Below, piece after piece: positions 7,688-61,613 of a stretch of DNA of 64,000 bases; position 1 is the stretch's first letter; each line of letters opens with the position of its first letter. The translations under genes and the position numbers were made by a program. The notes beneath the pieces were generated by a model, which ran no database searches, had not been told where the DNA came from, and was given only the letters and a program-made list of their open reading frames with translations. Source of the DNA: Naegleria gruberi (Eukaryota); assembly GCA_000004985.1 (NCBI GenBank), contig GG738868.1; one strand, written 5' to 3'.

Positions 7688-8716
7688 TTATTTCAACAAT
7701 TTAACAAGATAATAATTGGCTTCCTCATTTCCTCCTCTAGCCGATTTTCTAAACCACTTAATAGCTTCCTCATTATCCTTCTCCACTCCATCTCCATTCA
7801 AATACATGACTCCCAAATTAAGCTGAGCATCAGAATGTCCTTGATTGGCTGACATTTCAAAATACTCACGTGCCTTCTCAAATGATTGAGGAATTCCTTC
7901 ACCACCACTTGCATAAATACATCCCAAATCACATTGAGCTCCAGAATTTCCTTTTTTGGCTGCTTTTGTGTAATATTTAACGGCCAGTTGGAATTCTCCA
8001 AATACTTGTTCGTAGAGAATTGCTAAATTGTATTGAGAGGCATTGTATCCTTGTTCAGCTGATAATTTGAACCATTTGAGAGCTTTCGAATATGATTGTG
8101 AAATGTCTCCCTCGCCATTCTTATAGAGTAATCCTAAATTATATTGAGCCATGGCAAATCCTTGCTTGGCAGCCTGTTTAAACCAACGCTTAGAATCCTG
8201 ATATGATTGTTTCACACCATATTCACCTTCCAGACAAATATTTCCCAAAGTATTTTGAGCTAGGAAGTTTCCATTCTCTGCTGATTTCTTGATCCATTCA
8301 ATTGCTAATTCGTCAGATTGTTCGACTTCTTCTCCATCCATAAATAATCGTCCAAGTTTGTATTGGGCAATGGCAAGATTGTGATTGGCAGCTTTTTCAT
8401 ACCATTCGAAAGCTTTCGTATTTGATTGTTCGATACCTTCTCCCTTTTCATACAGTACACCTACATTAAATTGTGCTTCTGGATAATCTTGATGAGCAGC
8501 TTTTTCCGTCCATTCGAATGCTTTCGAATAATTACCCTTGTCATGATAAAGATTCGCCAATTTAAATTGATATTCAGCATTTCCTTCAACTGCCAATTTT
8601 TCACATAATTCTTCTTCTTCCCTCTGTTTCTCCAATCGTTCTTCAACAATTTCTAACCAATTATTAAAAGCTTCAATTTCTTCACGTGTCGTTGACCAAT
8701 GGATTTTATCTTGCAT
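7688..8716 (-). CDS. Sel1-like repeat (SLR, TPR-like) protein
   Basis: At least 8 tandem 36-aa Sel1 repeats with the canonical pattern, for example AQYNLGLLYKNGEGDISQSYSKALKWFKLSAEQG and AQCDLGCIYASGGEGIPQSFEKAREYFEMSANQG. The table start is GTG; the first ATG is at 8714-8716 (MQDKIHW...). Confidence 0.8.
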   Translation of the reverse strand: MQDKIHWSTTREEIEAFNNWLEIVEERLEKQREEEELCEKLAVEGNAEYQFKLANLYHDKGNYSKAFEWTEKAAHQDYPEAQFNVGVLYEKGEGIEQSNTKAFEWYEKAANHNLAIAQYKLGRLFMDGEEVEQSDELAIEWIKKSAENGNFLAQNTLGNICLEGEYGVKQSYQDSKRWFKQAAKQGFAMAQYNLGLLYKNGEGDISQSYSKALKWFKLSAEQGYNASQYNLAILYEQVFGEFQLAVKYYTKAAKKGNSGAQCDLGCIYASGGEGIPQSFEKAREYFEMSANQGHSDAQLNLGVMYLNGDGVEKDNEEAIKWFRKSARGGNEEANYYLVKLLK

Positions 8717-8889: not shown

Positions 8890-10387
8890 TTATTCCCGAT
8901 GTTGTTGAGTCATGATAAATTGTTTAACTTCCTCAAAAACTTGTTTCGAATTATCATGATCAATTGCTGATAAAGTTTTCACAGAAACTGTATCAAGTGG
9001 ATGTTCAGTAATCTCATTCAGGAATAGTTTAGTCATATATTCGATACATGCCACTGGATTCTTCTCCTCTGCTTCATTAAATCCTGAAAAGTATTTTGAA
9101 AAACTCTTAGTGGCAATCTTCTTTTCGAATAAATCTCTCTTATTGAATAATAATACGAAAGGTACCTTGTAGAAGAGTGCATTATTTACAACTTCATTGA
9201 AAACTCGTAAACTTTCCTTCACTCTCCAATAGCCATTATCTTCGTAGAGATTTAAATCAAATTCTGAGAGACTTGTTAAAAAGACAACAGCATCTACTGT
9301 ATTGAAAAAGTGAATCCTGTATATTTCATTATTAATATAAATTCAATATATTTAAATAGTTGATTACAATATTTTAAATATTTTAAATATTGTTAAATTA
9401 CAATAAATTTAAATGATTCAAAGAATGAGTGCAACATACCATTTACGACGTTCATTTCTCTGACCTCCAACATCAACTAAACGTAACTGTTTTCCATCAC
9501 CAACGTCAAATTTCATATCTGTTATTCCAATGGTCTTGGTACGAGTTCTGATCACATCCACAACTGTTGGAACATATTTATCGGAACAAATTCTATCTAA
9601 ATTCTCAAAGAGACTGTCATTTTCCAATGGAAATATTGTAGAAAAAGGTTGAGAAGATGTTAAACAATTCGTCGAATATTTCCAAATTTGATTAGATTTG
9701 AAATTATTTGCATCAATTCGAATCATTAATTGTCATCATGATTATTATCAATTTTTTCAAAGTGAATACACAATAAACTGGTCAATTAATCAAGAAACGT
9801 TCAAACTTACTATTCAGTTGAATCATATAATTGAAATTTCTCTCTATTTTCATATGCTTTTTGAATTCCTGCATCTTTCCACAGAGAATACAATCGTTTA
9901 GACCAAGAAGGATCTTCCAAATCATTTGTATTCAATGAATTTATAATTAATTTTGCAGTTTCTCTATTTTCTGGTTGTTCAATTGGAATATTCAAGTGTT
10001 GTGTTGCTGCCACAAGATTTTTAGCATTTTCCAACACGTTTAATCGGACAATTTCTATTAATTCAATTCTCTCCTGATCGTGCGTTATTCCTACACCATG
10101 AAAGAATTGTACTTGTTTGAAAAGTGTTGATTTTCCTATTGGAATTGGGTTGAATTTTTGAATAGAATTGATTATTTGCAATTTTATATAAAGAATTTGA
10201 TTAATATTAGTCATGATTCGAATAAAAAGAACTTACCTGATTCACCAGCTCCCAGAAGAAGAACTGTAATCTCTGATTTGTTTTTTGCTGTGGCTGCTGA
10301 TCCTCCATTAGGATTGTTGGAAGTTGGAGTAGCCATCATATGATGTTGGCCTTCCTTATCATGAGGCGAAACTACAATATTACCCAT
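8890..10387 (-). CDS. heterotrimeric G-protein alpha subunit (4 exons, about 358 aa)
   Basis: Exons on the minus strand: 10237..10387, 9811..10135, 9440..9613, 8890..9316. Introns: 10136..10236 (GTAAGT), 9614..9810 (GTAAGT), 9317..9439 (GTATGT), all ending in AG. Phases are consistent, with total CDS 1077 nt. The spliced product starts MGNIV (myristoylation Gly2). It contains the P-loop GAGESGKSTLFKQ, DVIRTRTKTIGI (switch I), RLVDVGGQRNERRKW (switch II DVGGQR), and FVLLFNKRDLFEKKI (NKxD). Confidence 0.85.
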
Positions 10388-11521
10388 TATTATTAAGAAA
10401 ATAGACGAATGATGATTCTATTCGAAAGAGAGGTTTTTTTGATGTATTGAAAAATTGTATTAATAATAATACTTTGATGTAATGTTGTTGTGATGCTACT
10501 TCAGAGAGATGCTCAGTCGCTATCCAATTCTAAACAATTAATACCAATAAAGAACACAATTAGAAATTATTCGAAACGATGTGTTGTGATGGCAGTCCAA
10601 AGAAAAAGATACCAATTTTCCAAACAAGCACCTATATTAACTGACTAGCAACAGAAGAGTACTCTGTGATATTTTAATTTTTTTACACTTGTCAAGTGAC
10701 AAACAACCATCACCGTGATAGTGCACAACACCAACGAACAGCTTATTGATAACAGCTATTTTCTCACAACTAGCATTTGTGGTCACATACTGCCATTTAA
10801 ATGGAGAGATGAAAAATTTCAGTTTGTGAGCGTACAATTAGGTGAATTGCAAAGCTAGTTGAAACTTACAATATGACCACTCATATAACTTTGCTCATTG
10901 GAAGAAGAAGAGATTGAAGATTCAATGAGTATAGGACACAGTTGATGGGGAGGACAAAATATCTAAAAAATGTTAAAATGTTCATTACATTGTCATCATT
11001 TGGTTGAAAAATTGTTAAATAATTTGAAGATCATATTCGGAATGGCTTAGCAAAAAACTATCTCTCACCTGTGTTACATTTCAAGAACTTATCATTCCAA
11101 CAACAACTTCAAATCACATTTTTTATAGATGCATTTCCAGCCTTATTATTAATAATTCAAATACACACCATCACCTTCCCGATACATCAAAAAACCCATT
11201 CATACAAAACAAGCCTTTAAAAATTGTGCGGGAGATGACGAACAAAATGATGATGATTTGATGTGTTTGATATTTTGCCGGGGTGATGATGATTTAAGGA
11301 AACCCTCAACAATACAAAAGGGCAACAAGTTGGGATGAAACAATGTGTGGAAAGGCGAAAGTCTCATCTGAGAATTTTGTGTTGCCTTTGCTGCAACCGA
11401 ATCTGAATAATGCTGCAGGCAACAGTTAAAAAACAAATTCATTCCAAGGCTTGAATTGTCAGCATCTTTGCAGTCAATATTTCCAATAGAAAGGCTTGGT
11501 ACAATTATCATCACAAGAGGA

Positions 11522-13561
11522 ATGAATTTTAATTGGCGCCAATTATTTGGTTTATTAATTGCACTTGTTTCAGTAATAATATTATTGGAAAGTAATCGTG
11601 ATGGTTTAGTATTGAGTGTTGGTGCTGTTGGTGTTGTGAATATTACAATTCCTTCTTCAGGTCCTAAATTTCCCAAGTACGAATGTATGACACAAACACC
11701 AGTCAATCAAAAGTATTATCCAACCATGTACACTATCGATACTGATTATTATGAATTTTGTCAGATTGATGACAGTGCAAAGGTGCCGAAAATTGTGAGA
11801 GAATTGAATAGATTGGATACTTGTGCAGAGTTTTTCTGTCGATCGGATAAGGTTTGGGATTTTAGAAATAGTACACAGCTGTCATTGTTTGGATTCATGT
11901 TAAATCATTGTTTGTATTGTGAGAGTAATGAGTCAATGGCTAAGGAATTTAGAAATCAAGTGAGAAATGGCTCTTGTCCTGCAATGGTACTGCCAAAAGG
12001 GTTAAATTTTGTGGATGCTTTTTATGGAGTTGCTTCAGTTCATTGCAATTTGAATGATTTGAATTCGAATGGATTTGTGAACTTTCCACTTGTGGATTAC
12101 AACTTGTTCCTCTCTGAATACTTTATGAACGATTTTGCCAAGTATAGGAGGCAAGTCTTGTTGGAGAAAATTCCAGACAGCTACAAGGATGCCCTCAGTA
12201 ATGTCACTCTCAATTCCCTCGTAAGATATTATTTCAGAGATTATTCCGATTATTCATATGCCAATCTCACTCAAACAATCAAGTCACCAACTGACCTACC
12301 ACTCCTGTGCTGGTGCAGATATCAAGAACCATCAGTACAATCGTTCGGATATCAATGCAATGAATTCTATCAAAATGGCTATCTTTCCTTCATTTATCAT
12401 TACAGTGCCATCTTCTTTTCAATCATTTTCAGCTTTTACTGCTATGGAATTGTAATATTCATCATTATTCCAAGAGTTTATGAACGATTCTCCTCATTCA
12501 AACAAAGAACAGACATCAAAATGACATCATCCATTCCAAAAAAGATTTTAATGACATTGAGACACTTTATGGATATTGTCACTCATCCTCCTGTATTTTT
12601 TGCATTGGGATCTTTATGTGGATTTTTAGAAAATTTTGCAAGAAACATTTTCAACTTCAAGTCCACAAATCCATTCTATCAAGTTTACTTTTTCGGAATT
12701 TTCAGAGCACTCAGTTGTGCCTTACTATTGTGTGGCTATTCTTCATTAGTTATTTCATGGGCTCATGTTATTGATCTATCAAAGAGAAAGGCTGTTGTGG
12801 AGGAGGGAAAGACAGAAAAGAAAATCAAACTCAGAAAGGGATTGTCTGTCTTTAATCTTTCAGTTTTAATCATTTTCTATGTGGCTGTAATTGTTGTGAT
12901 TATTATTTCCCTGGGAATGTTTGTAATCTTCCAGAACGACACTACAGCTTGGATTTTGATGGCTGCTGCCATCTTGTTCTACTTATTGACCTTTGTTGCT
13001 GGGTTTTCATTCTATGGTATCAAAATTCTAGTAACTTTGAGAAAGACAAGCAACTTTGGAAGTTTAATAGAGTACAGATTCACAAAATTCATCATGGCTG
13101 AAACTTTTCTCTTCTTTATTGTGTGGGCTATTTGTTTCCTCATGTTGTTGACGTACATGTTTGGATTTGACTTTTTGTCACTCTTCTATGGATTGAGTAG
13201 AGTATTAGTTGGAGATGCTTCCCTTGTTGCCATGTTGGTGCTCTCCTCATACATTACATTCAATGAACCAGTGTTTGCAAGTTTGTACGGATGGAGAGCA
13301 TTGAATGTTTGGAAAATTGTAACATCATGTGGATATGAAATCTACAGAAAGAAGAAGGAAGCAAATGAACAATTAACAGTGAAGGAAATAGATTTGAAAC
13401 AAACCAAGGTCGTTGAAGACAAAAACGACAATTTACCAAACGACACAAACCTCAATTCGCCAGAAAATTCAAAATCAGAGAGTGTACCCAATCAAGTTGT
13501 GGATAGTAATCCCGAGGATTCTCAACAAGCCAATCAACACGAGCAAGTATCAAGTATATAA
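11522..13561 (+). CDS. 7TM receptor-like protein with signal peptide and about 290-aa Cys-rich N-terminal ectodomain
   Basis: The table ORF starts at TTG 11456. The first ATG is 11522 (MNFNWRQLFGLLIALVSVIILLE), a signal peptide. The ectodomain has about 14 Cys and N-glycosylation sequons. It is followed by seven hydrophobic helices, for example IFFSIIFSFYCYGIVIFIII and FLFFIVWAICFLMLLTYMFGF. The C-terminal tail is S/N-rich. It is transcribed divergently from the G-alpha gene. Confidence 0.6.
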   Translation: MNFNWRQLFGLLIALVSVIILLESNRDGLVLSVGAVGVVNITIPSSGPKFPKYECMTQTPVNQKYYPTMYTIDTDYYEFCQIDDSAKVPKIVRELNRLDTCAEFFCRSDKVWDFRNSTQLSLFGFMLNHCLYCESNESMAKEFRNQVRNGSCPAMVLPKGLNFVDAFYGVASVHCNLNDLNSNGFVNFPLVDYNLFLSEYFMNDFAKYRRQVLLEKIPDSYKDALSNVTLNSLVRYYFRDYSDYSYANLTQTIKSPTDLPLLCWCRYQEPSVQSFGYQCNEFYQNGYLSFIYHYSAIFFSIIFSFYCYGIVIFIIIPRVYERFSSFKQRTDIKMTSSIPKKILMTLRHFMDIVTHPPVFFALGSLCGFLENFARNIFNFKSTNPFYQVYFFGIFRALSCALLLCGYSSLVISWAHVIDLSKRKAVVEEGKTEKKIKLRKGLSVFNLSVLIIFYVAVIVVIIISLGMFVIFQNDTTAWILMAAAILFYLLTFVAGFSFYGIKILVTLRKTSNFGSLIEYRFTKFIMAETFLFFIVWAICFLMLLTYMFGFDFLSLFYGLSRVLVGDASLVAMLVLSSYITFNEPVFASLYGWRALNVWKIVTSCGYEIYRKKKEANEQLTVKEIDLKQTKVVEDKNDNLPNDTNLNSPENSKSESVPNQVVDSNPEDSQQANQHEQVSSI

Positions 13562-13702: not shown

Positions 13703-14272
13703 ATGGACGGAATTAATTTACTCGAAACTGATCATACCAAGCTTCGTGACAAGATTTCACAATTCAGAAATAATGATAACTGGACAAGTCGTCAACTGTT
13801 GATCAAGGAAATTATTTCAAATGTGTGCCAACACACTTCTGCTGAGGAAAGATATCTCTACGATTTGATTACCCAAAAATTCGACAATGGAAAATTCCTC
13901 TACGATAAGCAATTGATCGACAATCAAGTCCACAAGGAAATGATGCAATTCTTACTCGACAAGATTGATATTCTCTCAGTTGGAAATATGTCATTCCGTG
14001 ATTCCTATCAACAAGAATGTGAAAAACTCTTCTCAGTTCTCGAAGATCACATGAAGGAAGAAGAACAATTAGTTTTCCCTAAACTTCGTGAAACTCTCAA
14101 CACTACTGAATTGAGTGATTTGTACAAGAATTTGGAATGGGCAAAACAAAATGCTCCAACCAGACCACATCCATCAACTCCAGTTGTTGGATCAAAGATT
14201 TTACATCCAGTTGCTGGACTTGTTGATTCACTTACTGAAAGTTTGACTGGAACTACTAATGTTAACAAGTAA
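13703..14272 (+). CDS. hemerythrin-like (HHE cation-binding) domain protein
   Basis: ATG at 13703. His/Glu spacing (HTKLRD...HTSAEE...HKEMMQFL...HMKEEEQLVFPKL) fits the four-helix H..HxxxE pattern of hemerythrin-like domains. This assignment is moderate only. Confidence 0.4.
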   Translation: MDGINLLETDHTKLRDKISQFRNNDNWTSRQLLIKEIISNVCQHTSAEERYLYDLITQKFDNGKFLYDKQLIDNQVHKEMMQFLLDKIDILSVGNMSFRDSYQQECEKLFSVLEDHMKEEEQLVFPKLRETLNTTELSDLYKNLEWAKQNAPTRPHPSTPVVGSKILHPVAGLVDSLTESLTGTTNVNK

Positions 14273-26451: not shown

Positions 26452-26736
26452 TTTTTTAAGATTGTTTTTTTGAGATTGATTCTTTTTGGCGCGCTTTTTA
26501 AATTGTTTCTCAAGTTCAAGTTTAAATATTTTTGACTTATTCAATTGTAATACTTGAAGATGTTAAATGGTATTTTTTAAATAGAGTATATTACAATGTT
26601 TTTACAGTAAATATTTTGTAAAGTATTTAATGAAGAAGTTTCTTTTCTGAACTGTAGTTAATGAGGAAGATTTTTGAGTGCAATCTTACGCAGCCGTTAT
26701 TTCCATAAAAGTTTCGTCCAATGAGATGAAAAAAAA

Positions 26737-26792
26737 TTTCTGCGTCTTACTGGATACACACAATCGAATTTCTGCGTCTTACTGGATACACA
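26737..26792. repeat. perfect 24-nt direct repeat x2 (tttctgcgtcttactggatacaca) separated by 8 nt, about 40 nt upstream of the predicted ATG of the 7TM-RGS gene
   Basis: Copies at 26737-26760 and 26769-26792 are identical in sequence; the spacer is caatcgaa. Confidence 0.8.
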
Positions 26793-26829
26793 GTCGCTTT
26801 GTGTTAAAAATTGTCAAGAAATTAAAAAA

Positions 26830-28948
26830 ATGGCCTCTCCAACAGTTCTTTTATCAACAACAAGGGCACTTTTGTTTCTTTCATTTCTTTTTGGTATCCA
26901 CCACTTTCGAATACATAAATGCCACCAATCAAGATCCATTCTTCTTATTTCTCGATAGTAACTTGTATACGGGACATGCATGGTCTGGATTACATGCTTT
27001 TTATTGGAAAGACTCTTTCAATTTTACGGATTCGGCAAGTTTCGTAAAGTATATGCAACAAGAACAAAATATCAAGGTTGCATTCATGGGAGATGATGAT
27101 TACAGAAATTATCTTCAAAAAATGTGGAGCGACTATTCGAAACTATATCAATTAGAAAATCTGCAATTTACCTATCTTCCAACAAGTGTTGGAACTTGCT
27201 TGACATATCATCCATTCGATGATTTTGATATTCTTATTTCATTGGATAGTTCTTTCTATGTTTCTATTCGAAAGTTCAATACTGGAAGAAGGAAACCTGA
27301 TGGTCAACTCTATAATTTTACCGATTTTTCATCAGTTTATTTGGATGCACCATTTGCCTTATATCAATACGATTCGGATAACAGTACAGGGTATCAATAC
27401 TATTCGAAACCTAATTGTACGAATGTCCAATTAGTTGCTGCCTATGAATCAGAAGTGCATATGAGTTATCTCTATTTGAAAAGAAATAATTCACTTTTAT
27501 CAGAAAGAGAAATTGAGTTTCTAAAATTTGCAAATTCCTTGACGAATCTCAAAACAATTTCTTCTACAATGCAAGAAAGAGCAAATATGGAGAAGGCATA
27601 TGGATTTGGAAATAATTCCTCTTTAGAATATTATCATTCATTATTCATGCCAGATTGTCAATGTGCGAATTCTGCATGTGCTTCAATTTCTTTTCAAGAA
27701 TCAGATTATTGGATTATACCAGCTGTAGCTTTGATAGTGGTGCATTATTTGGTATTATTCATTTCGAAATCTTTCTTGACACCTTCCTTAAAAAGTAGAC
27801 TTTTAATTCCATATTTGCCATTTATAGTAATATTTTTTGAAGCTAATAATTTTGGATTAATTTATAACTTGTGTTTTTATCCAAGAATGTTAATTTTTTC
27901 ATTTGTTATTACTTGGTACATTATGATCTATTCCTTGACAATTATAAGAATTTACTATTTAAGAAATTTATATCATTTACTTTCCAAAAATAGAAAGAAT
28001 ATTGAAAAGAAACTTAGGTTTCAGAAAACAATTTCAGGTCCTCTCATAGGTCTACTATTCACTTTTGTGGGCGGATTTGCTCTATGTGCCTTCCTTTCCC
28101 TTCCATTTTACTTTGTCTTTATGTACATCCCAATTGGAAACGCAATTTACGTGAATATAATTATTGGAATTTATGTTGCAGTTGCATGTTTGGTGGGTTT
28201 ATTGGCAATTGGCGCCGATTTGATATTTAATAGGAAGAAGATTAAGGAGAAGGGATTGAGATACTTGTTCTTCTTTGATGATCCTTATATGATTCGTATA
28301 GAGTTGATTCTAATTTCCATGATTATTGTTTCGATTATTATTGTATCGACGATACCTAATTCACATGGAGCCAGATTCGTTTCTTTTGTGATTTATGTTT
28401 GCATTGTGTTGATATCAGGAGGAATGGCCACACTCAAGAATATCTTCAACAAGATTCTGATAACTATTCGAAAGAATAAGGCAAATCACCACACAAAAGA
28501 TGAAATTGAAATCATGTTACAAAACTCTGATTTTAGAAATATTTTAAGAGAATACTGCACCAAAGAAATGTCTTTGGAAAATTTCAACATTTTCACACAA
28601 TTATTAGAAATGAAGGAAAAGAAAATTAATCTAACTTTTGAAATATTGAAAAATATTGAGGAACAATACATGGCACTGAATTCCTTATTCGAATTGAATG
28701 TTCCTTCTCATGTAAGAAGGGAATTTTATGTATTTTTGAAAGAAATGGAAAGTGGAAATAATTCGAAAGAAAACGAATTGAAGGAAAGTAAGGAAGAATC
28801 AAATTCCAATTTGGATAGATTAAATCTCATTCTGAAAGATTCAATTTTGCAAAATCTTGGAGATACACTCTCAAGATTAGAAACAACAAAGGAATATGAA
28901 ATATGGAATGAAATTTATTCGATTCAATCCAAAACCTTACAACAATAA
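26830..28948 (+). CDS. 7TM-RGS protein (signal peptide, N-terminal ectodomain, 7 TM helices, C-terminal RGS domain)
   Basis: The table ORF 26678..28948 starts at GTG and lacks a signal peptide. The +1 frame has ATG 26830 encoding MASPTVLLSTTRALLFLSFLF. A 40-nt intron 26894..26933 (GTATCC...CAAG, phase 1) joins it to the main frame (D-PFFLFLDSNLYTGHAW...). Seven hydrophobic helices span about aa 340-640. C-terminal RGS-like segment: NSDFRNILREYCTKEMSLENFNIFTQLLEMKE...IEEQYMALNSLFELNVPSHVRREF (compare RGS F..F..SEFSEENL.FW...E.Y......P.EVN). Confidence 0.6.
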
Positions 28949-37454: not shown

Positions 37455-37528
37455 TGCCTCCCTTGGGAATCGAACCCAAGACCTCTGTCTTACTAGGACA
37501 GCGCTACTGCCAACTGAGCTAGGAAGGC
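37455..37528 (-). tRNA. tRNA-Thr (anticodon AGU)
   Basis: The revcomp is GCCTTCCTAGCTCAGTTGGCAGTAGCGCTGTCCTAGTAAGACAGAGGTCTTGGGTTCGATTCCCAAGGGAGGCA. The acceptor stem has 7 bp (one G-U). Anticodon stem CTGTC/GACAG with loop CTAGTAA gives anticodon AGT. T arm is TTGGG-TTCGATT-CCCAA. Confidence 0.8.
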
Positions 37529-39157: not shown

Positions 39158-39427
39158 TTTTTTAAAGTTGCTATTATTGATTTTACAACTATTTTATTGG
39201 TAATAAGCGAAGTTAAAAAGACTACAGCACCACAGGTTCCCAAGTTGTCTCCAACCTCAGTACTGATGTGGCTCGACGATGCTTAACTTCTCAAATCGGA
39301 CGGGATGAGGTGCATTCATCGTGATATGGCCGTAGCCATCCATAACACCAATTTTTCGATCTTCAAATCATACCAAGGTCAGAGCGAAAGATAAGGATGG
39401 GATGAAGGTTGTGAAAAATATTACAAT

Positions 39428-43341: not shown

Positions 43342-44358
43342 TTAGTTGTGCAACACTTGACCAAGAATTGAATGTCGTAGTAGTGCATATTGTAGAGGTA
43401 GTATTACCTGAGAATATGAATCCTCAGCAGAACCCAATTCAAAATAATTTACTCTGCATTGCAGTAAGGGAATACCTTTAGAATAAATTTCGTCATTAGG
43501 AGTCAATTCTCTCATCAATTCCTCAATCATTTCGGTACTCACTTGTCTTTTCAATTCCTTCTTTAATCCAATAATTAAAAAAGTAATGTTTTTCTTACTC
43601 AACCAATCCATAATTGAATTTTCATTTAATTTTGAAAGAAAAAATGGAAGATATTTCATTCGTAAACTTTCGAATGATTCTTTCGAGCTCAAATCGAAAC
43701 AATATACAATAACATTACTTGATGGTATTTGAGATGATATTATTCCTTGATAAATCCACTCTCCTGAACAATCCCACAATTGAATTGAAAATGTTTCATT
43801 TAAAGCTGAAAATCTTACAAATTCCACTTCTGAACTTATTGTTGGTTCTATTTTCGTTTTAAATTTAGAGTTTGGAATTATCAATCTATCAACAAAACAT
43901 GATTTTCCACATGATTTAGGTCCCATGATGAGGAATTTCAAAAGTTTCCCACTTTCGGTAGTGTATTTAATATTTCTATTGAGAAATGGAAGAAAGGTTG
44001 AGTGAAAATGAGTAAAATATTCACTTGGTGAATTTTTGGGAATTGGTTTAAACCAAATAAAAGATCCATATTCTGAACTATCCCTCTCTTTCCAATTTAA
44101 TCGAATCCAATAATTTCTAAAATTCCTGCTAACTTGTTTTAACTTTGTATATTCAATATTATCCAAATATGATAATATTAAACTGAGTAATTCATCAGGT
44201 AATTGTTTTTCTAATGTGGAAATGTTGTTGAAATTGTAAACTTTCCGTTTATCAATATCATTATCAACATTAGTTTCGTATTTTGCAAGAAATAAATTTT
44301 TCGGATAATGATCAATTATTTCTGATGGTGACGGAGCGAGTGTTAGTGATTGTCCCAT
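43342..44358 (-). CDS. F-box domain + Ras-like small GTPase domain protein
   Basis: The table start is TTG 44379; the first ATG is 44356-44358 (MGQSLTL..., Gly2). F-box: LPDELLSLILSYLDNIEYTKLKQVSRNFRNYW. GTPase motifs: LKFLIMGPKSCGKSCFVDRLI (P-loop), IQLWDCSGEW (DxxG), LIIGLKKEL. Confidence 0.6.
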   Translation of the reverse strand: MGQSLTLAPSPSEIIDHYPKNLFLAKYETNVDNDIDKRKVYNFNNISTLEKQLPDELLSLILSYLDNIEYTKLKQVSRNFRNYWIRLNWKERDSSEYGSFIWFKPIPKNSPSEYFTHFHSTFLPFLNRNIKYTTESGKLLKFLIMGPKSCGKSCFVDRLIIPNSKFKTKIEPTISSEVEFVRFSALNETFSIQLWDCSGEWIYQGIISSQIPSSNVIVYCFDLSSKESFESLRMKYLPFFLSKLNENSIMDWLSKKNITFLIIGLKKELKRQVSTEMIEELMRELTPNDEIYSKGIPLLQCRVNYFELGSAEDSYSQVILPLQYALLRHSILGQVLHN

Positions 44359-44547
44359 TTTTTTTTTAATAATTTTCAAGATGACGTGTTATTGATTGTA
44401 AAATAATTTTCAATAATTACAAAATTAATAAAATGATATTGGAAAAATCAAAGAATAATTAACAAGAGTCTGCATACCTTATTGAAAGAAGGAATTTAAT
44501 TTACTGAAAATAATGAACAAACTTGAAAACTTAGATTTCTCAGTTTT

Positions 44548-46588: not shown

Positions 46589-46659
46589 TCAGGTGTGGTA
46601 TAGTGGTAGCATTCCAGACTGTCACTCTGGCGACCCGGGTTCAATTCCCGGCACTCGAG
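46589..46659 (+). tRNA. tRNA-Asp (anticodon GUC)
   Basis: TCAGGTGTGGTATAGTGGTAGCATTCCAGACTGTCACTCTGGCGACCCGGGTTCAATTCCCGGCACTCGAG. Anticodon stem CCAGA/TCTGG with loop CTGTCAC (GTC). T arm is CCGGG-TTCAATT-CCCGG. It is close to eukaryotic tRNA-Asp consensus (GTATAGTGGT D-arm). The acceptor stem has an A3-C70 mismatch. The overlapping table ORF 46593..46976 is spurious. Confidence 0.75.
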
Positions 46660-47830
46660 AAGTAATAGTTTTATATTTTAATCATTTCTCAATAATTTTT
46701 TGCACTTTCTTGTGGTATGGTTTTGTATCTTCATTTGATTTCATTTTTATTTTTCAAAAATATTTTGTAATTCCTTTTTTGGAAGCCTCAGAAGAACCAT
46801 CATTTTTTTCACATCCCCTGTACTTTAATTTTCCAAACATTCTCAACCCAAAATCAATTCATCTCTCCACAAACTATTCTCCACCTTCACTTTCACCGAA
46901 ATATCAATTCTACCATTCATCCTTTATCTCGCTCAATTTTAATACAACCAATCAAGCATACTTCAATATTTTGTAAAAATAGCAAAAAAACGCCATACGC
47001 TCGAGTTATTACTTGTTCTTTCCCGCCAAAATCTCAGTTAGTATTTGTGGTAAGTGAGAGGACAACTCATTCTTGGTTTTGGTGTCACTCATCTCTATGA
47101 GATCTTGCAAACTGGAATGCAATCACTCTGTAGATGCAACGATATCTACAGAAATTTTACATTTTCCTCAACAAAATCTTGATAAACTTAGAGATAAATC
47201 TTTAGCCTATACTTTAATGCACTTTCTTCAAGTGTTTATTACAGTTTGTTGTCATGTAACAATATTTGGAATAGAGCACGAATCTTGATTGAGTCACTAA
47301 GTTTTCCTTCTTTACAAAAACCAAGCATATCAAAAAATCCCTGCCTAAATTGTTCCTAATTTTTGCTCTTCAACATTTGATTGGATCTTCAAAAAGAGAC
47401 TGGACGAATTGAATAGAGACACACTCATTACCGACTTTTGATGCTATCAATACACTTGTCTCAAAACTATTTCACATCTTCTATATACTTCATACAAAAC
47501 TTATTCGAAACATATTGTTAAAACTAATCAACATTATCCTTCTCGTTGTATGGAATCTGATACTCCCAATTGATGAACCTGTATTGTCAATTGACTGCTC
47601 CACTACATCGAAATAGTAAAGAGTTATTCTTTCAACATCCAAAATGTCACCCAAACCGCTAATTCAAATGACTTTCTTCTTCGCATCAGTGATTCGACAT
47701 GCTCGTGTCACCAATCCCCCATCATTTCACAACTAGTAATGTGTTCTCTCTGCTGAGCAATATTTAAAATGTCACTCGAGCCAACTGCCAATCAAATCAT
47801 CCACATAAAAAAATTCACAATTTATAACAA

Positions 47831-49064
47831 GATGAATAAGACCCTCTTGTTCGCATTAGCCATGCTTTTCTGCATGGTTGCTTTCGTTTCTGCTGGTCCA
47901 TCTGCCAGTGCTGAAACTCTCGCTGCCACCACATTGTGCAACACTTTAGGAAATAAAACTAAAGGATGTGTCAAGTCATCTAGAAAACTCTTGAAAAGAG
48001 TTCCAAAGAATAAGAGAAGACAAGTTAAGAGATTGTTAAAGAAGGCCAGAAAGAATGCTCGTAAAGCAAAGAAACAACAAAGAAAGCTCAGAAAATTGAG
48101 AAGATGTGCCAAGAAGGCTAAATCTTTGAAGAAGAGAAGACAATGTAGAAGAGCATTGAAGAAGGTTGTTAAGAAGATCAAGAAGGCTAGACGTGCTGCT
48201 AGAAGAGCTGCCAAGAAGGCTGCTAAGAAGGCTAGAAAGGCCAGAAGATCTGCTAGACGTGCTGCTAGAAGAAAGGCCAGAAAAGCTTTGAAGAAGGCTA
48301 AGAAATCCTTGAAGAAGAGAAGAGCTTTGAAGAGAGCTGTCAGAAAGGGTAGAAAGTTCGGAAGAAAGGTCAGAAAGGTCAGAAAGTGTAAGAGATCTTC
48401 CTCAAGAAAGACCAGACGTGCTGCCAAGAGAAGAGTCAAGAAGGCAGTTAAGAAGGCTTTGAGAAAGTTGAAGAAACAATTGAAGAAGGCTAGAAAGGTT
48501 GCTAAGAAGGCTGCCAAGAAGGCTAGAAAGGCTAGAAGATTGAGAAGAAGACCAGCTAGAAAATGTAGACGTGTCTCAAAGAAGTCCATTAAGAGAGCTG
48601 TTAAGAGAGTTGTCAAGAGAGCTGTTAAGAAGGCTACTTTGAAGCTCAGAAAGCAATTGAAGAAGGCTAAGAAGCAAGTCAAGAAGGCTAGAAAGGTTGC
48701 CAAGAAGGCTGTTAAGAAGGCCAGAAAGGTTGTCAAGAAGGTCAAGAAGACTTGTAGAAGAAAGGTCAAGAAGGCTGCCAAGAAGATTGCTAAGAGAAGA
48801 TCTGCTGCCAAGAAGGTCGTCTTGAAGAAGGCTGCTGCTAAAAAGTTGAACAAGGTTGTTAACAAGTTGTTGAAATTGAAGAAGAAGCTCGGTAAGAGAT
48901 TCAACCCAAAGAAACACATCCCAAAGAAGGTTAGAAAGGTCTTGAGAAAATTGAGAATTTCTGCCAAGTGTGTCAAGAAGGTCAAGAAGGCTGCCAAGAA
49001 GGTTAAGGTCTCAAAGGCTTTGTTGAACAAGTTGAGAAAGGTTTCTTCCAAGTGTAGAAAGTAA
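47831..49064 (+). CDS. secreted hyper-basic Lys/Arg-rich protein with regularly spaced cysteines (about 410 aa, more than 55% K+R)
   Basis: The table ORF starts at ATG 47769. A second in-frame ATG at 47831 begins a canonical signal peptide MNKTLLFALAMLFCMVAFVSAGPSASA. The mature protein is nearly pure K/R/A/V/L (KKARKNARKAKKQQRKLRKLRRCAKKAKSLKKRRQCRRALKK...). About 10 Cys occur at semi-regular spacing, and dozens of dibasic sites are present. Codon use is strongly biased (aag/aga/gct/gtt/gtc/ttg). Confidence 0.65.
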
Positions 49065-49295
49065 ATCAATTTCATTTGAATTTGAATCATTAAATTATTA
49101 AATACATATTTGGAAATTCAATTATTAATTTACCCATAAATTTGTTATTGTATTGCGTTTTGAAAAAAGCATGTAGATCAACAAAACTGATATGTATTGT
49201 AATATTATTTTAAATTGATTGGAAAAATTGTAAACTTTCAAAAAACGAAAAATTTGGTAATTCAAGATTAATTTTTTTTGAATTTGATAAAAAAA

Positions 49296-57109: not shown

Positions 57110-57561
57110 TGAACAATGAAGACCTGCCCCACTACTGGTTGCAACTCTAATTCAAGAGTGTAATTCAAAGCACATCTTTCTTTTATTAAGGCAAATTGGT
57201 CTATTTCATTGATTAATTTTGAATATTTGTGATAGATTCATTTTAGTATGAATTTCTGAATGGGAAGATCAAAATGGGTGGTATCACTGTTTGGTTTTTA
57301 TGTATTCTATGAAGTATCAACTTTCCAATTTTGATTTTTGGTTTCTACATGGCGAAGGAGGAGGAGCTGAGAATTAGAACATTGCTAATTGGTTAAAAAA
57401 ATACTTGCTAAAACAAGGGTTGGGAATTCAGAATAAATCGACAATTTTCAGGTTTATTCAACAATATCACGGGAGCAAGCGGTATTTACAATAAACACGT
57501 GTCTGTGCAATCAGCATGTGTTGACTTTAGGTTAGTTTAGCCCTGTGCTTTCTTGTGTGAA

Positions 57562-59244
57562 ATGATTTCAAAAATTAAAAAAATGTTTGCAACAGAATGT
57601 CTGTTGAACGAACATAGAATATTCAAAAGAGATTACAGCAATTACCTTCATCAGTTCCATGATGATTCTTCATCAACATGTGGGAATGAACAATTCGAAT
57701 CTTTATCTTACTCAAGAAATTCATCTATGGAAGAAAGCTTGAACATTCAAACTAAAGAACTTGCTAAATCAATGCTTGAACATGCTGAAAGCTATGTTAA
57801 AGGTACTAATGGATATCCAAAATCCAATGAAAACGCTTTCGAATGGTATCTCAAATCTGCCAAACTTGGCAATGCTTCAGCCCAATATATTGTTGGACTA
57901 ATGAACATGGACGGTATTGGAACCTCTATTTCTCATACCAAGGCATTGAAATATTTCAAGAAAGCTGCCAAACAAGATAACATTGGTGCCCAACATAATT
58001 ATGGGAAACTGTTAGAAAGAAATGGTAAGCCTTATAAAGCTTTCAAATGGTTTGTAAGAGCTGCTGAAAAGGGTAACTGTAGGTACTCACAACATCGTCT
58101 CGGTGAATTATATCTGGATGGTATTGGAGTTGAGAATGATGATTCTACAGCTTTCGAATGGTTTCAACGAGCTGCAAATCAAGAATATTCAGAGGCACAG
58201 CTTGCTCTTGCTAGAATGTATTTTTATGGTCAAGGAGTAAGTCGTTCTCTGAAGAAATCCTTTGAATGGGCCTTAAAGGCAGCAACAAGTAATGAAAATG
58301 GAAGAGCCCAATATGAAACTGGCCTAAACTATTTGAAAGGTTGCGGAGTTGAACCATCAACAGAAGAAGCATTAAAATTCTTAAGAAAAGCAGCTGATAA
58401 CGAAGATGCAGATGCTCAATTACTTCTTTGTGTAATGCACTATGAAGAAGTAATACCAAAGACCACTCCTGAAGAAGTAATATTTCAATGGTGTTCCAAA
58501 GCAGCTGACAATTATATTCACCAAATTGCACTATTCATCTTGGGAGAACTCTATGAAAAAGGAATTGGAGTAGAGCAAGATAATGAAATGGCATTTGAGA
58601 AGTACATGTCTCTTGAAGTATCAACATCAAATTTTATACTGTTTCCTTATCATTATTACAAAGAGTTATTGTTTCGTATAGGTGATATGTATTTGAATGG
58701 AAAAGGTGTTGAACGATCAAGTAAAAAGGCAGGGGAATGGTTTAATAAGGCAGCCAATAGAGGGCACTCAGAATCCAAATTTCGATTTGGGGTTTTAATG
58801 TTCCTTATTGGAAAACATTCAGAAAAAGCTCTATATTGGATTTCACAGGCAGACCAAGATGGCCATGTATTAGCCTCTGTTTTCGAAATGTGGACACAAG
58901 ATATCCAAGACCTATTAGAGACAACTTCTTCATTCAAATTAGCTTGGATAATTAGAGAATGTTGCAATTTCTTTCTCTCCAACAAATATGAGACAATAAG
59001 GGATGTCGAGGAATATTTAGCAGGGAGGTTTCATGATGGAGGCTTTTATGAGCAAGCTTTTAAATGGTATAATATGTCTGCTGAAAAGGGAAACATACTA
59101 TCACAATATAACATAGGAGTTATGTATAAGAAAGGTATTGGTGTGGCTCAATCCTATTCGAAATCTGCTGAATGGTATGAAAAAGGATTTTACAAATTAT
59201 TACTTGAAACAGATTATTTATCAGGAAAGGATTTGGATTTTTAA
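57562..59244 (+). CDS. Sel1-like repeat (SLR) protein
   Basis: The table start is TTG 57553; the ATG is at 57562. About 12 Sel1 repeats are present (AQYIVGLMNMDGIGTSISHTKALKYFKKAAKQDN; SQHRLGELYLDGIGVENDDSTAFEWFQRAANQEY; SQYNIGVMYKKGIGVAQSYSKSAEWYEKG). Confidence 0.8.
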   Translation: MISKIKKMFATECLLNEHRIFKRDYSNYLHQFHDDSSSTCGNEQFESLSYSRNSSMEESLNIQTKELAKSMLEHAESYVKGTNGYPKSNENAFEWYLKSAKLGNASAQYIVGLMNMDGIGTSISHTKALKYFKKAAKQDNIGAQHNYGKLLERNGKPYKAFKWFVRAAEKGNCRYSQHRLGELYLDGIGVENDDSTAFEWFQRAANQEYSEAQLALARMYFYGQGVSRSLKKSFEWALKAATSNENGRAQYETGLNYLKGCGVEPSTEEALKFLRKAADNEDADAQLLLCVMHYEEVIPKTTPEEVIFQWCSKAADNYIHQIALFILGELYEKGIGVEQDNEMAFEKYMSLEVSTSNFILFPYHYYKELLFRIGDMYLNGKGVERSSKKAGEWFNKAANRGHSESKFRFGVLMFLIGKHSEKALYWISQADQDGHVLASVFEMWTQDIQDLLETTSSFKLAWIIRECCNFFLSNKYETIRDVEEYLAGRFHDGGFYEQAFKWYNMSAEKGNILSQYNIGVMYKKGIGVAQSYSKSAEWYEKGFYKLLLETDYLSGKDLDF

Positions 59245-61526: not shown

Positions 61527-61613
61527 TCCGATGAGACGGAATCGAACCGCCGACCACAGGATGACAGTTTTTCTTGCTACAGTCCCATGCTCTACCAGCT
61601 GAGCTATCATCGG
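61527..61613 (-). tRNA. tRNA-Tyr (anticodon GUA) with 14-nt intron
   Basis: The revcomp is CCGATGATAGCTCAGCTGGTAGAGCATGGGACTGTAG[caagaaaaactgtc]ATCCTGTGGTCGGCGGTTCGATTCCGTCTCATCGGA. It closely matches the eukaryotic tRNA-Tyr consensus (CCTTCGATAGCTCAGCTGGTAGAGC...GACTGTAG...ATCC...GGTTCGATTCCGG). The intron lies immediately 3' of anticodon position 37, the canonical site. Confidence 0.8.

What the first reader, a model, noticed from the sequence alone, without database searches (positions are those of the whole stretch)
8890..13561. Divergently transcribed G-alpha and 7TM receptor-like genes sharing an intergenic region of about 1.1 kb
The G-alpha start (10387, minus strand) and the receptor start (11522, plus strand) face away from each other across one short intergenic region, a classic arrangement for co-regulated partners. 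Together with the 7TM-RGS gene 16 kb downstream, the window carries a receptor, a G-alpha and an RGS (GAP) from one pathway. Whether this receptor couples to this G-alpha is testable.
Basis: inference. Interest (0 to 1): 0.55.

Follow-up and report, generated by a model that had tools for sequence, protein, structure and literature searches.

The report
Neighbouring G-alpha and orphan receptor genes
In this Naegleria gruberi region a G-protein alpha-subunit gene sits head-to-head with an uncharacterised seven-helix receptor-like gene, but nothing beyond their adjacency suggests that they work together.

Summary
A 4-exon G-alpha gene (8890-10387, minus) is identical to N. gruberi XP_002677164.1. 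An intact 679-codon ORF (11522-13561, plus) faces away from it across 1,134 bp.

The functional reading is not supported:
- No G-alpha lies within 8-10 kb of seven homologous receptor loci, and no receptor homolog lies next to the two closest Willaertia G-alphas. None of these is a demonstrated ortholog.
- Divergent pairs are common here (7 of 38 adjacent pairs), and this spacer is the longest of the seven.
- The G-alpha has all catalytic motifs but lacks the usual charged N-terminal helix and the hydrophobic C-terminal receptor-contact tail.
- The "7TM-RGS" gene (26.7-28.9 kb) has only a sub-threshold RGS match, and the related N. fowleri carries about 107 RGS-domain genes.

The adjacency is most likely coincidental. 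The orphan GPCR-fold family is the more useful lead.

The parts
8890..10387 (-). G-protein alpha-subunit gene, 4 exons (10387-10237, 10135-9811, 9613-9440, 9316-8890), 358 aa. Identical to N. gruberi XP_002677164.1 / D2VF92.
   Evidence: Gene model with GT..AG introns. Pfam G-alpha 2.8e-100. Exact match to the RefSeq protein. Motifs present: GAGESGKST 46-54, RTRTKTIGI 181-189, DVGGQR 206-211, NKRD 275-278, SAID 333-336.
10388..11521 (.). Spacer of 1,134 bp between the two start codons. No recognisable feature. Presumably holds the two promoters and 5' UTRs.
   Evidence: No Rfam or tRNA hit. Only short chance-level repeats. Only short ORFs without family matches, not studied further. Longest of the 7 divergent spacers in the window.
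11522..11596 (+). Receptor-like protein, aa 1-25: signal peptide or N-terminal anchor.
   Evidence: Hydrophobic segment at aa 7-25. The N-terminus aligns with homolog P0001.
11597..12364 (+). Receptor-like protein, aa 26-281: ectodomain. Ten cysteines are conserved (invariant among the 12 closest members). Six N-x-S/T sites. No known domain match.
   Evidence: Cys and N-glycosylation positions. Invariant C80, C101, C106, C130, C133, C152, C175, C263, C265, C279 among the 12 closest members. pLDDT about 75-94 over most of aa 41-280. No Pfam or PDB sequence hit.
12365..13261 (+). Receptor-like protein, aa 282-580: seven-transmembrane domain with a GPCR-type fold in the model.
13262..13561 (+). 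Receptor-like protein, aa 581-679 plus stop: short amphipathic helices (helix-8-like) followed by a disordered polar cytosolic tail.
   Evidence: Helices 582-589, 591-601 and 605-627, then pLDDT below 50 from aa 631 onward.
26723..28948 (+). 7TM protein with a C-terminal RGS-like stretch (probable divergent 7TM-RGS). 100% identical to an N. gruberi predicted protein (P0210). Context only; not shown to belong with the pair.
   Evidence: Identity to P0210. About 7 hydrophobic segments at aa 327-575. Pfam RGS E = 0.01, 16.7 bits against a cut-off of 23.9. No detectable homology to the receptor family (hhalign probability 0.6%).

Best explanation
These are two independent genes of Naegleria gruberi that happen to be neighbours.

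(1) The first gene encodes a catalytically complete G-alpha from the lineage-specific heterolobosean expansion. It carries a full set of GTP-binding and hydrolysis motifs. Its N-terminus is rich in Pro, Gly and Asn instead of forming the charged alpha-N helix. Its C-terminus is short and polar (...VKQFIMTQQHRE) instead of ending in the hydrophobic receptor-inserting hook. I infer that it cycles GTP but may not use the textbook G-beta-gamma and receptor contacts.

(2) The second gene encodes an orphan receptor-like protein. It has a signal peptide, a disulphide-rich glycosylated ectodomain that is the likely ligand-binding part, a seven-helix bundle with a GPCR fold, and a disordered cytosolic tail. 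It belongs to a family that has multiplied in Naegleria and Willaertia and has no Pfam model. I infer that it is a cell-surface sensor whose downstream partner is unknown.

Each gene most likely has its own promoter in the 1.1-kb spacer, and the head-to-head arrangement is coincidental or at most specific to N. gruberi.

Shown here: the gene structures, the motifs, the extent of the family, the fold of the model, and the absence of the pairing at related loci. Inferred: the membrane topology, the receptor function and the independence of regulation.
For: - Identity of the G-alpha.
- Atypical termini compared with 56 homologs. The closest relatives, Willaertia P0004 and P0005, also lack a charged alpha-N helix, and P0005 keeps the same 'ITVLLLG' motif, so this is a subgroup trait and not a gene-model error.
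- Receptor family: 88 representatives at E <= 1e-3 among 1.84 billion proteins. All 14 named members among the 20 looked up are from Naegleria or Willaertia. No Pfam hit for the window protein.
- No G-alpha within +-8-10 kb (less on the two short metagenomic contigs) of seven receptor-family loci, and no receptor homolog near two Willaertia G-alpha loci, confirmed by tblastn.
- Divergent pairs make up 7 of 38 adjacent pairs, and this spacer is the longest of them.
- Large G-alpha and RGS gene families in Naegleria: PMC9283941.
Against: - Adjacency of a G-alpha to a GPCR-fold gene is not frequent a priori. My rough estimate is below 1% per G-alpha if about 50-100 of about 15,700 genes are 7TM receptors.
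- The comparison loci are paralogs at 31-48% identity with no shared flanking genes, so conservation of a true ortholog pair was never tested.
- No expression data could be consulted.
- The fold evidence rests on a predicted model, not a solved structure.
Confidence: 0.65

Rival explanations
1. Cognate pair. The 7TM protein is the guanine-nucleotide exchange receptor for this particular G-alpha, and the two are co-regulated from the shared divergent spacer.
For: - Head-to-head adjacency.
- GPCR fold of the neighbour.
- Naegleria has slow-exchanging G-alphas for which almost no GPCRs are known: only one cAR-like candidate in N. fowleri (PMC9283941).
Against: - The pairing is absent at all nine related loci.
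- The spacer is the longest divergent spacer in the window.
- The G-alpha lacks the alpha-N helix and the C-terminal hydrophobic hook used in all solved GPCR-G protein complexes (the role of these elements is established knowledge).
- The base rate of divergent neighbours is about 20%.
Confidence: 0.12
2. GAP-receptor module. The G-alpha is self-activating and is controlled by the 7TM-RGS-like protein encoded 16 kb away, as with AtRGS1/AtGPA1 or N. fowleri 7TM-RGS/G-alpha5 and G-alpha7. Under this reading the locus is a loose signalling cluster.
For: - The best solved relative is the self-activating N. fowleri G-alpha7 (6ne6, E = 1e-60, 39% identity).
- The third gene has about 7 TM segments plus an RGS-like C-terminus with an 'SLENFNIF' motif.
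- 7TM-RGS proteins act on several Naegleria G-alphas (PMC9283941).
Against: - The RGS match is below the Pfam threshold.
- Human Gq scores almost as well as G-alpha7, so self-activation cannot be inferred.
- Nine or ten unrelated genes lie between the two.
- With 28 7TM-RGS and 79 other RGS genes in the ~28-Mb N. fowleri genome (size from my own knowledge), an RGS-domain gene within +-20 kb of any given gene is expected about 15% of the time (my estimate from counts).
Confidence: 0.08
3. The 7TM protein is not a G-protein-linked receptor at all. It could be a THH1/TOM1/TOM3-like or other seven-helix membrane protein that works in trafficking, adhesion or G-protein-independent signalling.
For: - Two distant family members give weak hits to Pfam THH1_TOM1-3_dom (E = 4e-4 and 0.024).
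- No DRY, NPxxY or CWxP motifs are visible in the sequence.
- Many GPCR-fold proteins do not couple to G proteins (established knowledge).
Against: - The window protein and the remaining relatives scanned show no THH1/TOM1 match.
- The topology, with an extracellular Cys-rich domain and a cytosolic tail, fits a surface receptor.
Confidence: 0.15

Closest known systems
Naegleria fowleri G-alpha subunits, e.g. the self-activating Nf G-alpha7 (PDB 6NE6; Bosch et al. 2022, PMC9283941)
   Same: Same protein family and same lineage-specific expansion. It is the best match among solved structures (E = 1e-60, 39% identity). All nucleotide-binding motifs and the switch-II tryptophan are conserved.
   Different: It is not an ortholog: identity is no higher than to many other G-alphas, and Gq scores E = 3e-57. 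The N-terminus lacks a charged alpha-N helix and the C-terminus is about 4 residues shorter and polar. Its kinetics are unknown.
G-protein-coupled receptors with large ectodomains (class B/adhesion, class C, Frizzled and cAR-like receptors)
   Different: Sequence identity is 4-13%. There is no Pfam GPCR family match and no significant Foldseek E-value. No DRY, NPxxY or CWxP motifs and no GPS motif are present. The ectodomain has no recognisable relative. G-protein coupling is untested.
THH1/TOM1/TOM3 seven-helix proteins (Pfam PF06454)
   Same: Both are seven-helix membrane proteins. Two distant relatives of the window protein give weak hits (E = 4e-4 and 0.024).
   Different: The window protein and the other relatives scanned show no hit. 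To my knowledge THH1/TOM proteins lack the large Cys-rich ectodomain. Membership is not established.
7TM-RGS proteins (Arabidopsis AtRGS1; the 28 N. fowleri 7TM-RGS proteins)
   Same: The third gene (26723-28948) has about 7 TM segments and a C-terminal RGS-like segment. This is the architecture described in PMC9283941.
   Different: The RGS score is below the Pfam cut-off. This gene is unrelated in sequence to the receptor next to the G-alpha, and that receptor has no RGS domain.
Bidirectional-promoter gene pairs
   Same: The two genes are head-to-head, with nothing annotated or detectable between them.
   Different: The spacer (1,134 bp) exceeds the usual limit of under 1 kb. It is the longest divergent spacer in this compact window. 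The pair is not conserved in any related locus examined.

Membership tests
Heterotrimeric G-protein alpha subunit (Pfam PF00503) | Full-length profile match including the helical-domain insertion | tested here: met
   336 bits, E = 2.8e-100, profile positions 16-333 of 333.
Heterotrimeric G-protein alpha subunit (Pfam PF00503) | G1-G5 nucleotide-binding motifs with the catalytic switch-I Arg and switch-II Gln | tested here: met
   GAGESGKST 46-54, RTRTKTIGI 181-189, DVGGQR 206-211, NKRD 275-278, SAID 333-336.
Heterotrimeric G-protein alpha subunit (Pfam PF00503) | Charged amphipathic N-terminal alpha-N helix (contacts G-beta-gamma and the receptor) | tested here: not met
   Residues 8-40 contain 3 Pro, 3 Gly and 4 Asn and are not K/R/E-rich, unlike most of the 56 homologs compared. 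The Pfam match starts only at profile position 16. This is a sequence-level judgement; no structure was predicted.
Heterotrimeric G-protein alpha subunit (Pfam PF00503) | C-terminal alpha-5 hook ending in hydrophobic residues (e.g. ...GLF) that inserts into the receptor | tested here: not met
   The protein ends ...VKQFIMTQQHRE. That is about 4 residues shorter than the canonical ...VKDIILxxxLxxxGL[FLM] seen in many homologs.
Heterotrimeric G-protein alpha subunit (Pfam PF00503) | N-terminal lipidation site (Gly2 myristoylation, with or without Cys3 palmitoylation) | tested here: inconclusive
   The sequence starts MGNIVVS. Gly2 is present, there is no Cys, and Ser is at position 7 rather than 6.
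G-protein-coupled receptor (fold-level superfamily) | Seven TM helices with N-terminus outside and C-terminus inside | tested here: met
   Signal peptide and an ectodomain bearing glycosylation sites. Seven long helices between aa 282 and 580 in the AF2 model. The topology is inferred.
G-protein-coupled receptor (fold-level superfamily) | Structural superposition on solved GPCRs | tested here: met
G-protein-coupled receptor (fold-level superfamily) | Sequence membership in a curated GPCR family, or class-A micro-switch motifs (DRY, CWxP, NPxxY) | tested here: not met
   No Pfam family at E <= 1 other than a spurious DUF7131 hit. No PDB sequence hit with the family profile. The motifs are absent on inspection of the TM3, TM6 and TM7 sequences.
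G-protein-coupled receptor (fold-level superfamily) | Ligand-dependent activation of a heterotrimeric G protein | not testable with these tools
   Needs biochemistry: GTP-gamma-S binding or BRET.
THH1/TOM1/TOM3 (Pfam PF06454) | Profile match at or above the gathering score | tested here: not met
   No hit for the window protein. Only two relatives gave hits. One is P0174 (14.5 bits against a cut-off of 25, E = 0.024). The other is an unidentified A2 member (E = 4e-4).
7TM-RGS (third gene, 26723-28948) | Seven TM helices followed by an RGS domain (PF00615 at or above 23.9 bits) | tested here: inconclusive
   About 7 hydrophobic segments. RGS match of 16.7 bits, E = 0.01, on the C-terminal 182 aa only. 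No PDB RGS hit.
Co-regulated divergent gene pair (bidirectional promoter) | Head-to-head orientation with a short shared spacer (conventionally under 1 kb) | tested here: not met
   The genes are head-to-head, but the spacer is 1,134 bp. It is the longest of the 7 divergent spacers in the window, whose median is 571 bp.
Co-regulated divergent gene pair (bidirectional promoter) | Conservation of the pair in related genomes | tested here: not met
   No pairing at 7 receptor-family loci and 2 G-alpha loci. Caveat: these are paralogous loci without shared synteny.
Co-regulated divergent gene pair (bidirectional promoter) | Correlated expression | not testable with these tools
   No expression data were available, and the accession numbers were not found in the paper library.

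The most novel reading that the evidence does not exclude
The Cys-rich-ectodomain 7TM family, known so far only from Naegleria and Willaertia, is the missing class of true GPCRs (exchange factors) for the slow-exchanging G-alpha subunits of Naegleria. Under this reading the head-to-head pair is a cognate receptor/G-alpha unit that uses a non-canonical interface, since the G-alpha has no alpha-N helix and no C-terminal hook.
Probability: 0.08. Interest if true: 0.7.

Novelty: new member of a known kind. Interest (0 to 1): 0.3.

Why it matters
[quoted passage not shown] Only one weak cAR-like GPCR candidate was identified, so it is unclear what activates the slow exchangers (PMC9283941).

A multi-copy family with a confident GPCR-fold model and a conserved disulphide-rich ectodomain is a concrete candidate set for those missing receptors. 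All its named members are from Naegleria or Willaertia. Relatives occur in the pathogen N. fowleri (P0141).

The specific G-alpha/receptor adjacency offers one cheap pair to try first in a coupling assay, but on present evidence it is probably a coincidence.

The receptor ORF also appears to be missing from the public N. gruberi protein set, which is a small annotation gain.

Tried and rejected
**Look-ups that failed or were unavailable**
- Exact look-up of the receptor, hemerythrin and G-alpha proteins in the gene-position index failed. N. gruberi contigs seem not to be indexed there, so the reference annotation around the pair could not be read.
- The first AF2 run, with 4 sequences, gave a useless model (pLDDT 50). 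It was replaced by the 47-sequence run.
- The afdb50 library was not available.
The scan with the 12-sequence alignment returned no confirmed locus.
- The PDB sequence search with the family profile found nothing.
- Accession numbers of the G-alpha were not found in the paper library.

**Ideas tested and rejected**
- The receptor is a paralog of the 7TM-RGS gene minus its RGS domain. BLASTP found nothing, and hhalign gave a probability of 0.6%.
- Any comparison locus is a positional ortholog of the window locus. None of 16 neighbouring window proteins hit any fetched locus.
- The window comes from an unsampled heterolobosean or from Acrasis. This was my early guess from 40-48% identities. Exact matches to N. 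gruberi NEG-M proteins overturned it.
- A hidden alpha-N-encoding upstream exon lies in the spacer. No suitable ORF exists, and the Willaertia relatives share the same kind of N-terminus.
Full report
**Source of the window.** The window is AT-rich (about 33% GC) eukaryotic DNA with short GT..AG introns. It comes from Naegleria gruberi strain NEG-M. My G-alpha gene model is residue-for-residue identical to XP_002677164.1 / EFC44420.1 / D2VF92, "G protein, alpha subunit family". Four neighbouring ORFs are also exact N. gruberi proteins, on a scaffold of 427,589 bp. The 7TM-RGS-like ORF is 100% identical to another N. gruberi predicted protein.

**Check of the observation.** The G-alpha gene lies on the minus strand with exons 10387-10237, 10135-9811, 9613-9440 and 9316-8890. 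Its introns are 101, 197 and 123 nt, and the product is 358 aa. It scores 2.8e-100 against Pfam G-alpha. The plus-strand gene is one intact ORF, from the ATG at 11522 to the stop at 13559-13561, 679 aa. The start codons face away from each other across 1,134 bp. The spacer contains no Rfam family or tRNA and only short, chance-level repeats.

**The G-alpha.** Every catalytic element is present:
- P-loop GAGESGKST (46-54)
- switch I RTRTKTIGI (181-189)
- switch II DVGGQR (206-211)
- NKRD (275-278)
- SAID (333-336)

The best solved relative is the self-activating N. fowleri G-alpha7 (6NE6, E = 1e-60, 39% identity). Human Gq is nearly as good (E = 3e-57), so no kinetic class can be inferred.

Two features are atypical. 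The first is the region before the P-loop, MGNIVVSPHDKEGQHHMMATPTSNNPNGGSAATAKNKSEITVLLLG. It is rich in Pro, Gly and Asn, whereas most homologs have a charged amphipathic alpha-N helix there. The second is the C-terminus, which ends ...VKQFIMTQQHRE. That is about four residues shorter than the canonical ...VKDIILxxxLxxxGL[FLM] and has no terminal hydrophobic residues. In solved GPCR-G protein complexes these two elements make the contacts with G-beta-gamma and the receptor (established knowledge). The closest relatives, Willaertia P0004 and P0005 (46-48% identity), have similar N-termini. The feature is therefore a subgroup trait, not a gene-model error.

**The receptor-like gene.** It matches no Pfam family. 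A word-indexed search found only three homologs. A full HMMER scan of 1.84 billion representatives, using a profile of these sequences, found 88 at E <= 1e-3 and 24 at E <= 1e-30. Of 20 representatives looked up, all 14 that carry a name are hypothetical proteins of N. lovaniensis, N. gruberi, N. fowleri or Willaertia magna. The rest come from metagenomes.

The family is multi-copy. My lower bounds are 7 copies in N. lovaniensis, 6 in Willaertia and 3 in N. gruberi.

The window protein has these parts:
- a signal peptide
- an ectodomain of about 255 aa with ten cysteines invariant among the 12 closest members and six N-x-S/T sites
- seven hydrophobic helices
- a polar tail

It keeps every invariant residue of the family (for example P317, W413, G392, R395, T521 and D565), so it is not a pseudogene.

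There are no DRY, NPxxY or CWxP motifs. Two distant relatives give weak sub-threshold hits to THH1/TOM1/TOM3. I therefore call it an orphan GPCR-fold, receptor-like protein. Membership in any named GPCR family is not established, and G-protein coupling is untested.

No protein at least 50% identical to this ORF exists in the representative library, although its neighbours are there. The UniProt numbering (D2VF92, then D2VF96) leaves room for only three of the four plus-strand genes in between. The gene is therefore probably absent from the reference annotation.

**Test of the functional link.**

*Conservation.* I fetched seven loci that carry family members: Willaertia L001, metagenomic L002 and L003, and N. 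lovaniensis L006-L009. I also fetched the two loci of the closest Willaertia G-alphas (L004, L005), each with 8-10 kb of flank where available. Neither the annotated neighbours nor tblastn show a G-alpha beside any receptor homolog, or a receptor homolog beside either G-alpha. None of 16 window neighbours is found in any of these loci. They are therefore dispersed paralogs, and a true ortholog comparison remains undone.

*Base rate.* In an approximate gene list for the window, 7 of 38 adjacent pairs are divergent. Their spacers are 178, 383, 464, 571, 638, 744 and 1,134 bp, and the pair in question has the longest. This gives no hint of a compact bidirectional promoter.

*Family sizes.* N. fowleri encodes 13 G-alpha, 28 7TM-RGS and 79 further RGS proteins (PMC9283941). 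Finding an RGS-type gene within about 20 kb of a G-alpha is therefore not remarkable.

*The G-alpha termini.* The atypical N- and C-termini argue, weakly, against canonical receptor coupling.

**The "7TM-RGS" gene.** ORF 26723-28948 has about seven hydrophobic segments. Its C-terminal stretch (…FRNILREYCTKEMSLENFNIF…ELNVPSHVRREF…) looks like an RGS box but scores only 16.7 bits (E = 0.01) against the Pfam cut-off of 23.9. It finds no RGS structure by sequence. It is probably a divergent 7TM-RGS. It is unrelated in sequence to the receptor beside the G-alpha, and nine or ten unrelated genes lie between it and that receptor.

**Verdict.** The proposal that the genes form a co-regulated or cognate signalling unit rests on adjacency alone and gained nothing from the tests available. 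I put it at about 12%.

The most likely reading (about 65%) is a chance neighbourhood of two genes. One is an already annotated, somewhat atypical G-alpha paralog. The other is a member of an undescribed GPCR-fold family known so far only from heteroloboseans.

That family is the more valuable product of this check. Naegleria has conventional slow-exchanging G-alphas but almost no recognised GPCRs (PMC9283941). The authors of that paper mention orphan 7TM proteins only as "data not shown".

Overall interest is modest at 0.3. In kind, it is a new member of a known class.

Noticed in passing
window 11522-13561: The intact 679-aa receptor-like ORF has no protein at least 50% identical to it in the 1.84-billion-representative library, and its exact sequence is not in the collection. 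Flanking N. gruberi proteins (D2VF89, D2VF90, D2VF92, D2VF96, D2VF97) are present. It is probably missing from the N. gruberi reference annotation.
   Followed up: partly
window 47769-49064 (+), mirrored by ORF 47822-49090 (-): An ORF encodes a signal peptide followed by about 390 aa of extreme Lys/Arg/Ala-rich low-complexity sequence. It coincides with the strongest GC skew in the window (+0.335 at 48-50 kb). The opposite-strand ORF is probably an artefact of the repeat composition.
   Followed up: partly
window 43342-44379 (-): A single ORF combines an F-box (aa 58-94) with a Ras-family small-GTPase domain (aa 147-291). This is an unusual architecture.
   Followed up: no
window 39219-39337 (-), 37455-37528 (-), 46589-46659 (+), 61527-61613 (-): A 5S rRNA gene (105 bits) and three tRNA genes are scattered among the protein-coding genes. 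Rfam detects the 87-nt tRNA at 61527-61613 but ARAGORN does not, so it may contain an intron.
   Followed up: no
L007 4669-6957 (-) and 8001-9875 (+) (N. lovaniensis PYSW02000032.1): Two paralogs of the receptor family lie head-to-head. The family therefore grows by local duplication, and a divergent neighbour of a family member can be another family member.
   Followed up: partly
L008 and L009 (N. lovaniensis PYSW02000006.1 and PYSW02000078.1): Family member P0128 and its neighbours occur twice with identical gene order. In each copy there is a 1,424-aa endonuclease/reverse-transcriptase (LINE-like) ORF a few kb upstream. This is either a recent segmental duplication or an assembly duplicate.
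   Followed up: no
window 26678-28948: The annotated N. gruberi model of the 7TM-RGS-like gene (P0210, 631 aa) starts 110 codons inside the open frame and lacks a signal peptide. Its paralog P0211 (542 aa) has a signal peptide but ends within the last TM region, without the RGS-like part. Both reference models look incomplete.
   Followed up: no
window 7688-8716 (-), 57553-59244 (+), 13703-14272 (+): There are two Sel1-repeat protein genes (Pfam E about 1e-67 to 1e-70). A 189-aa hemerythrin-domain protein gene lies 142 bp downstream of the receptor gene.
   Followed up: no
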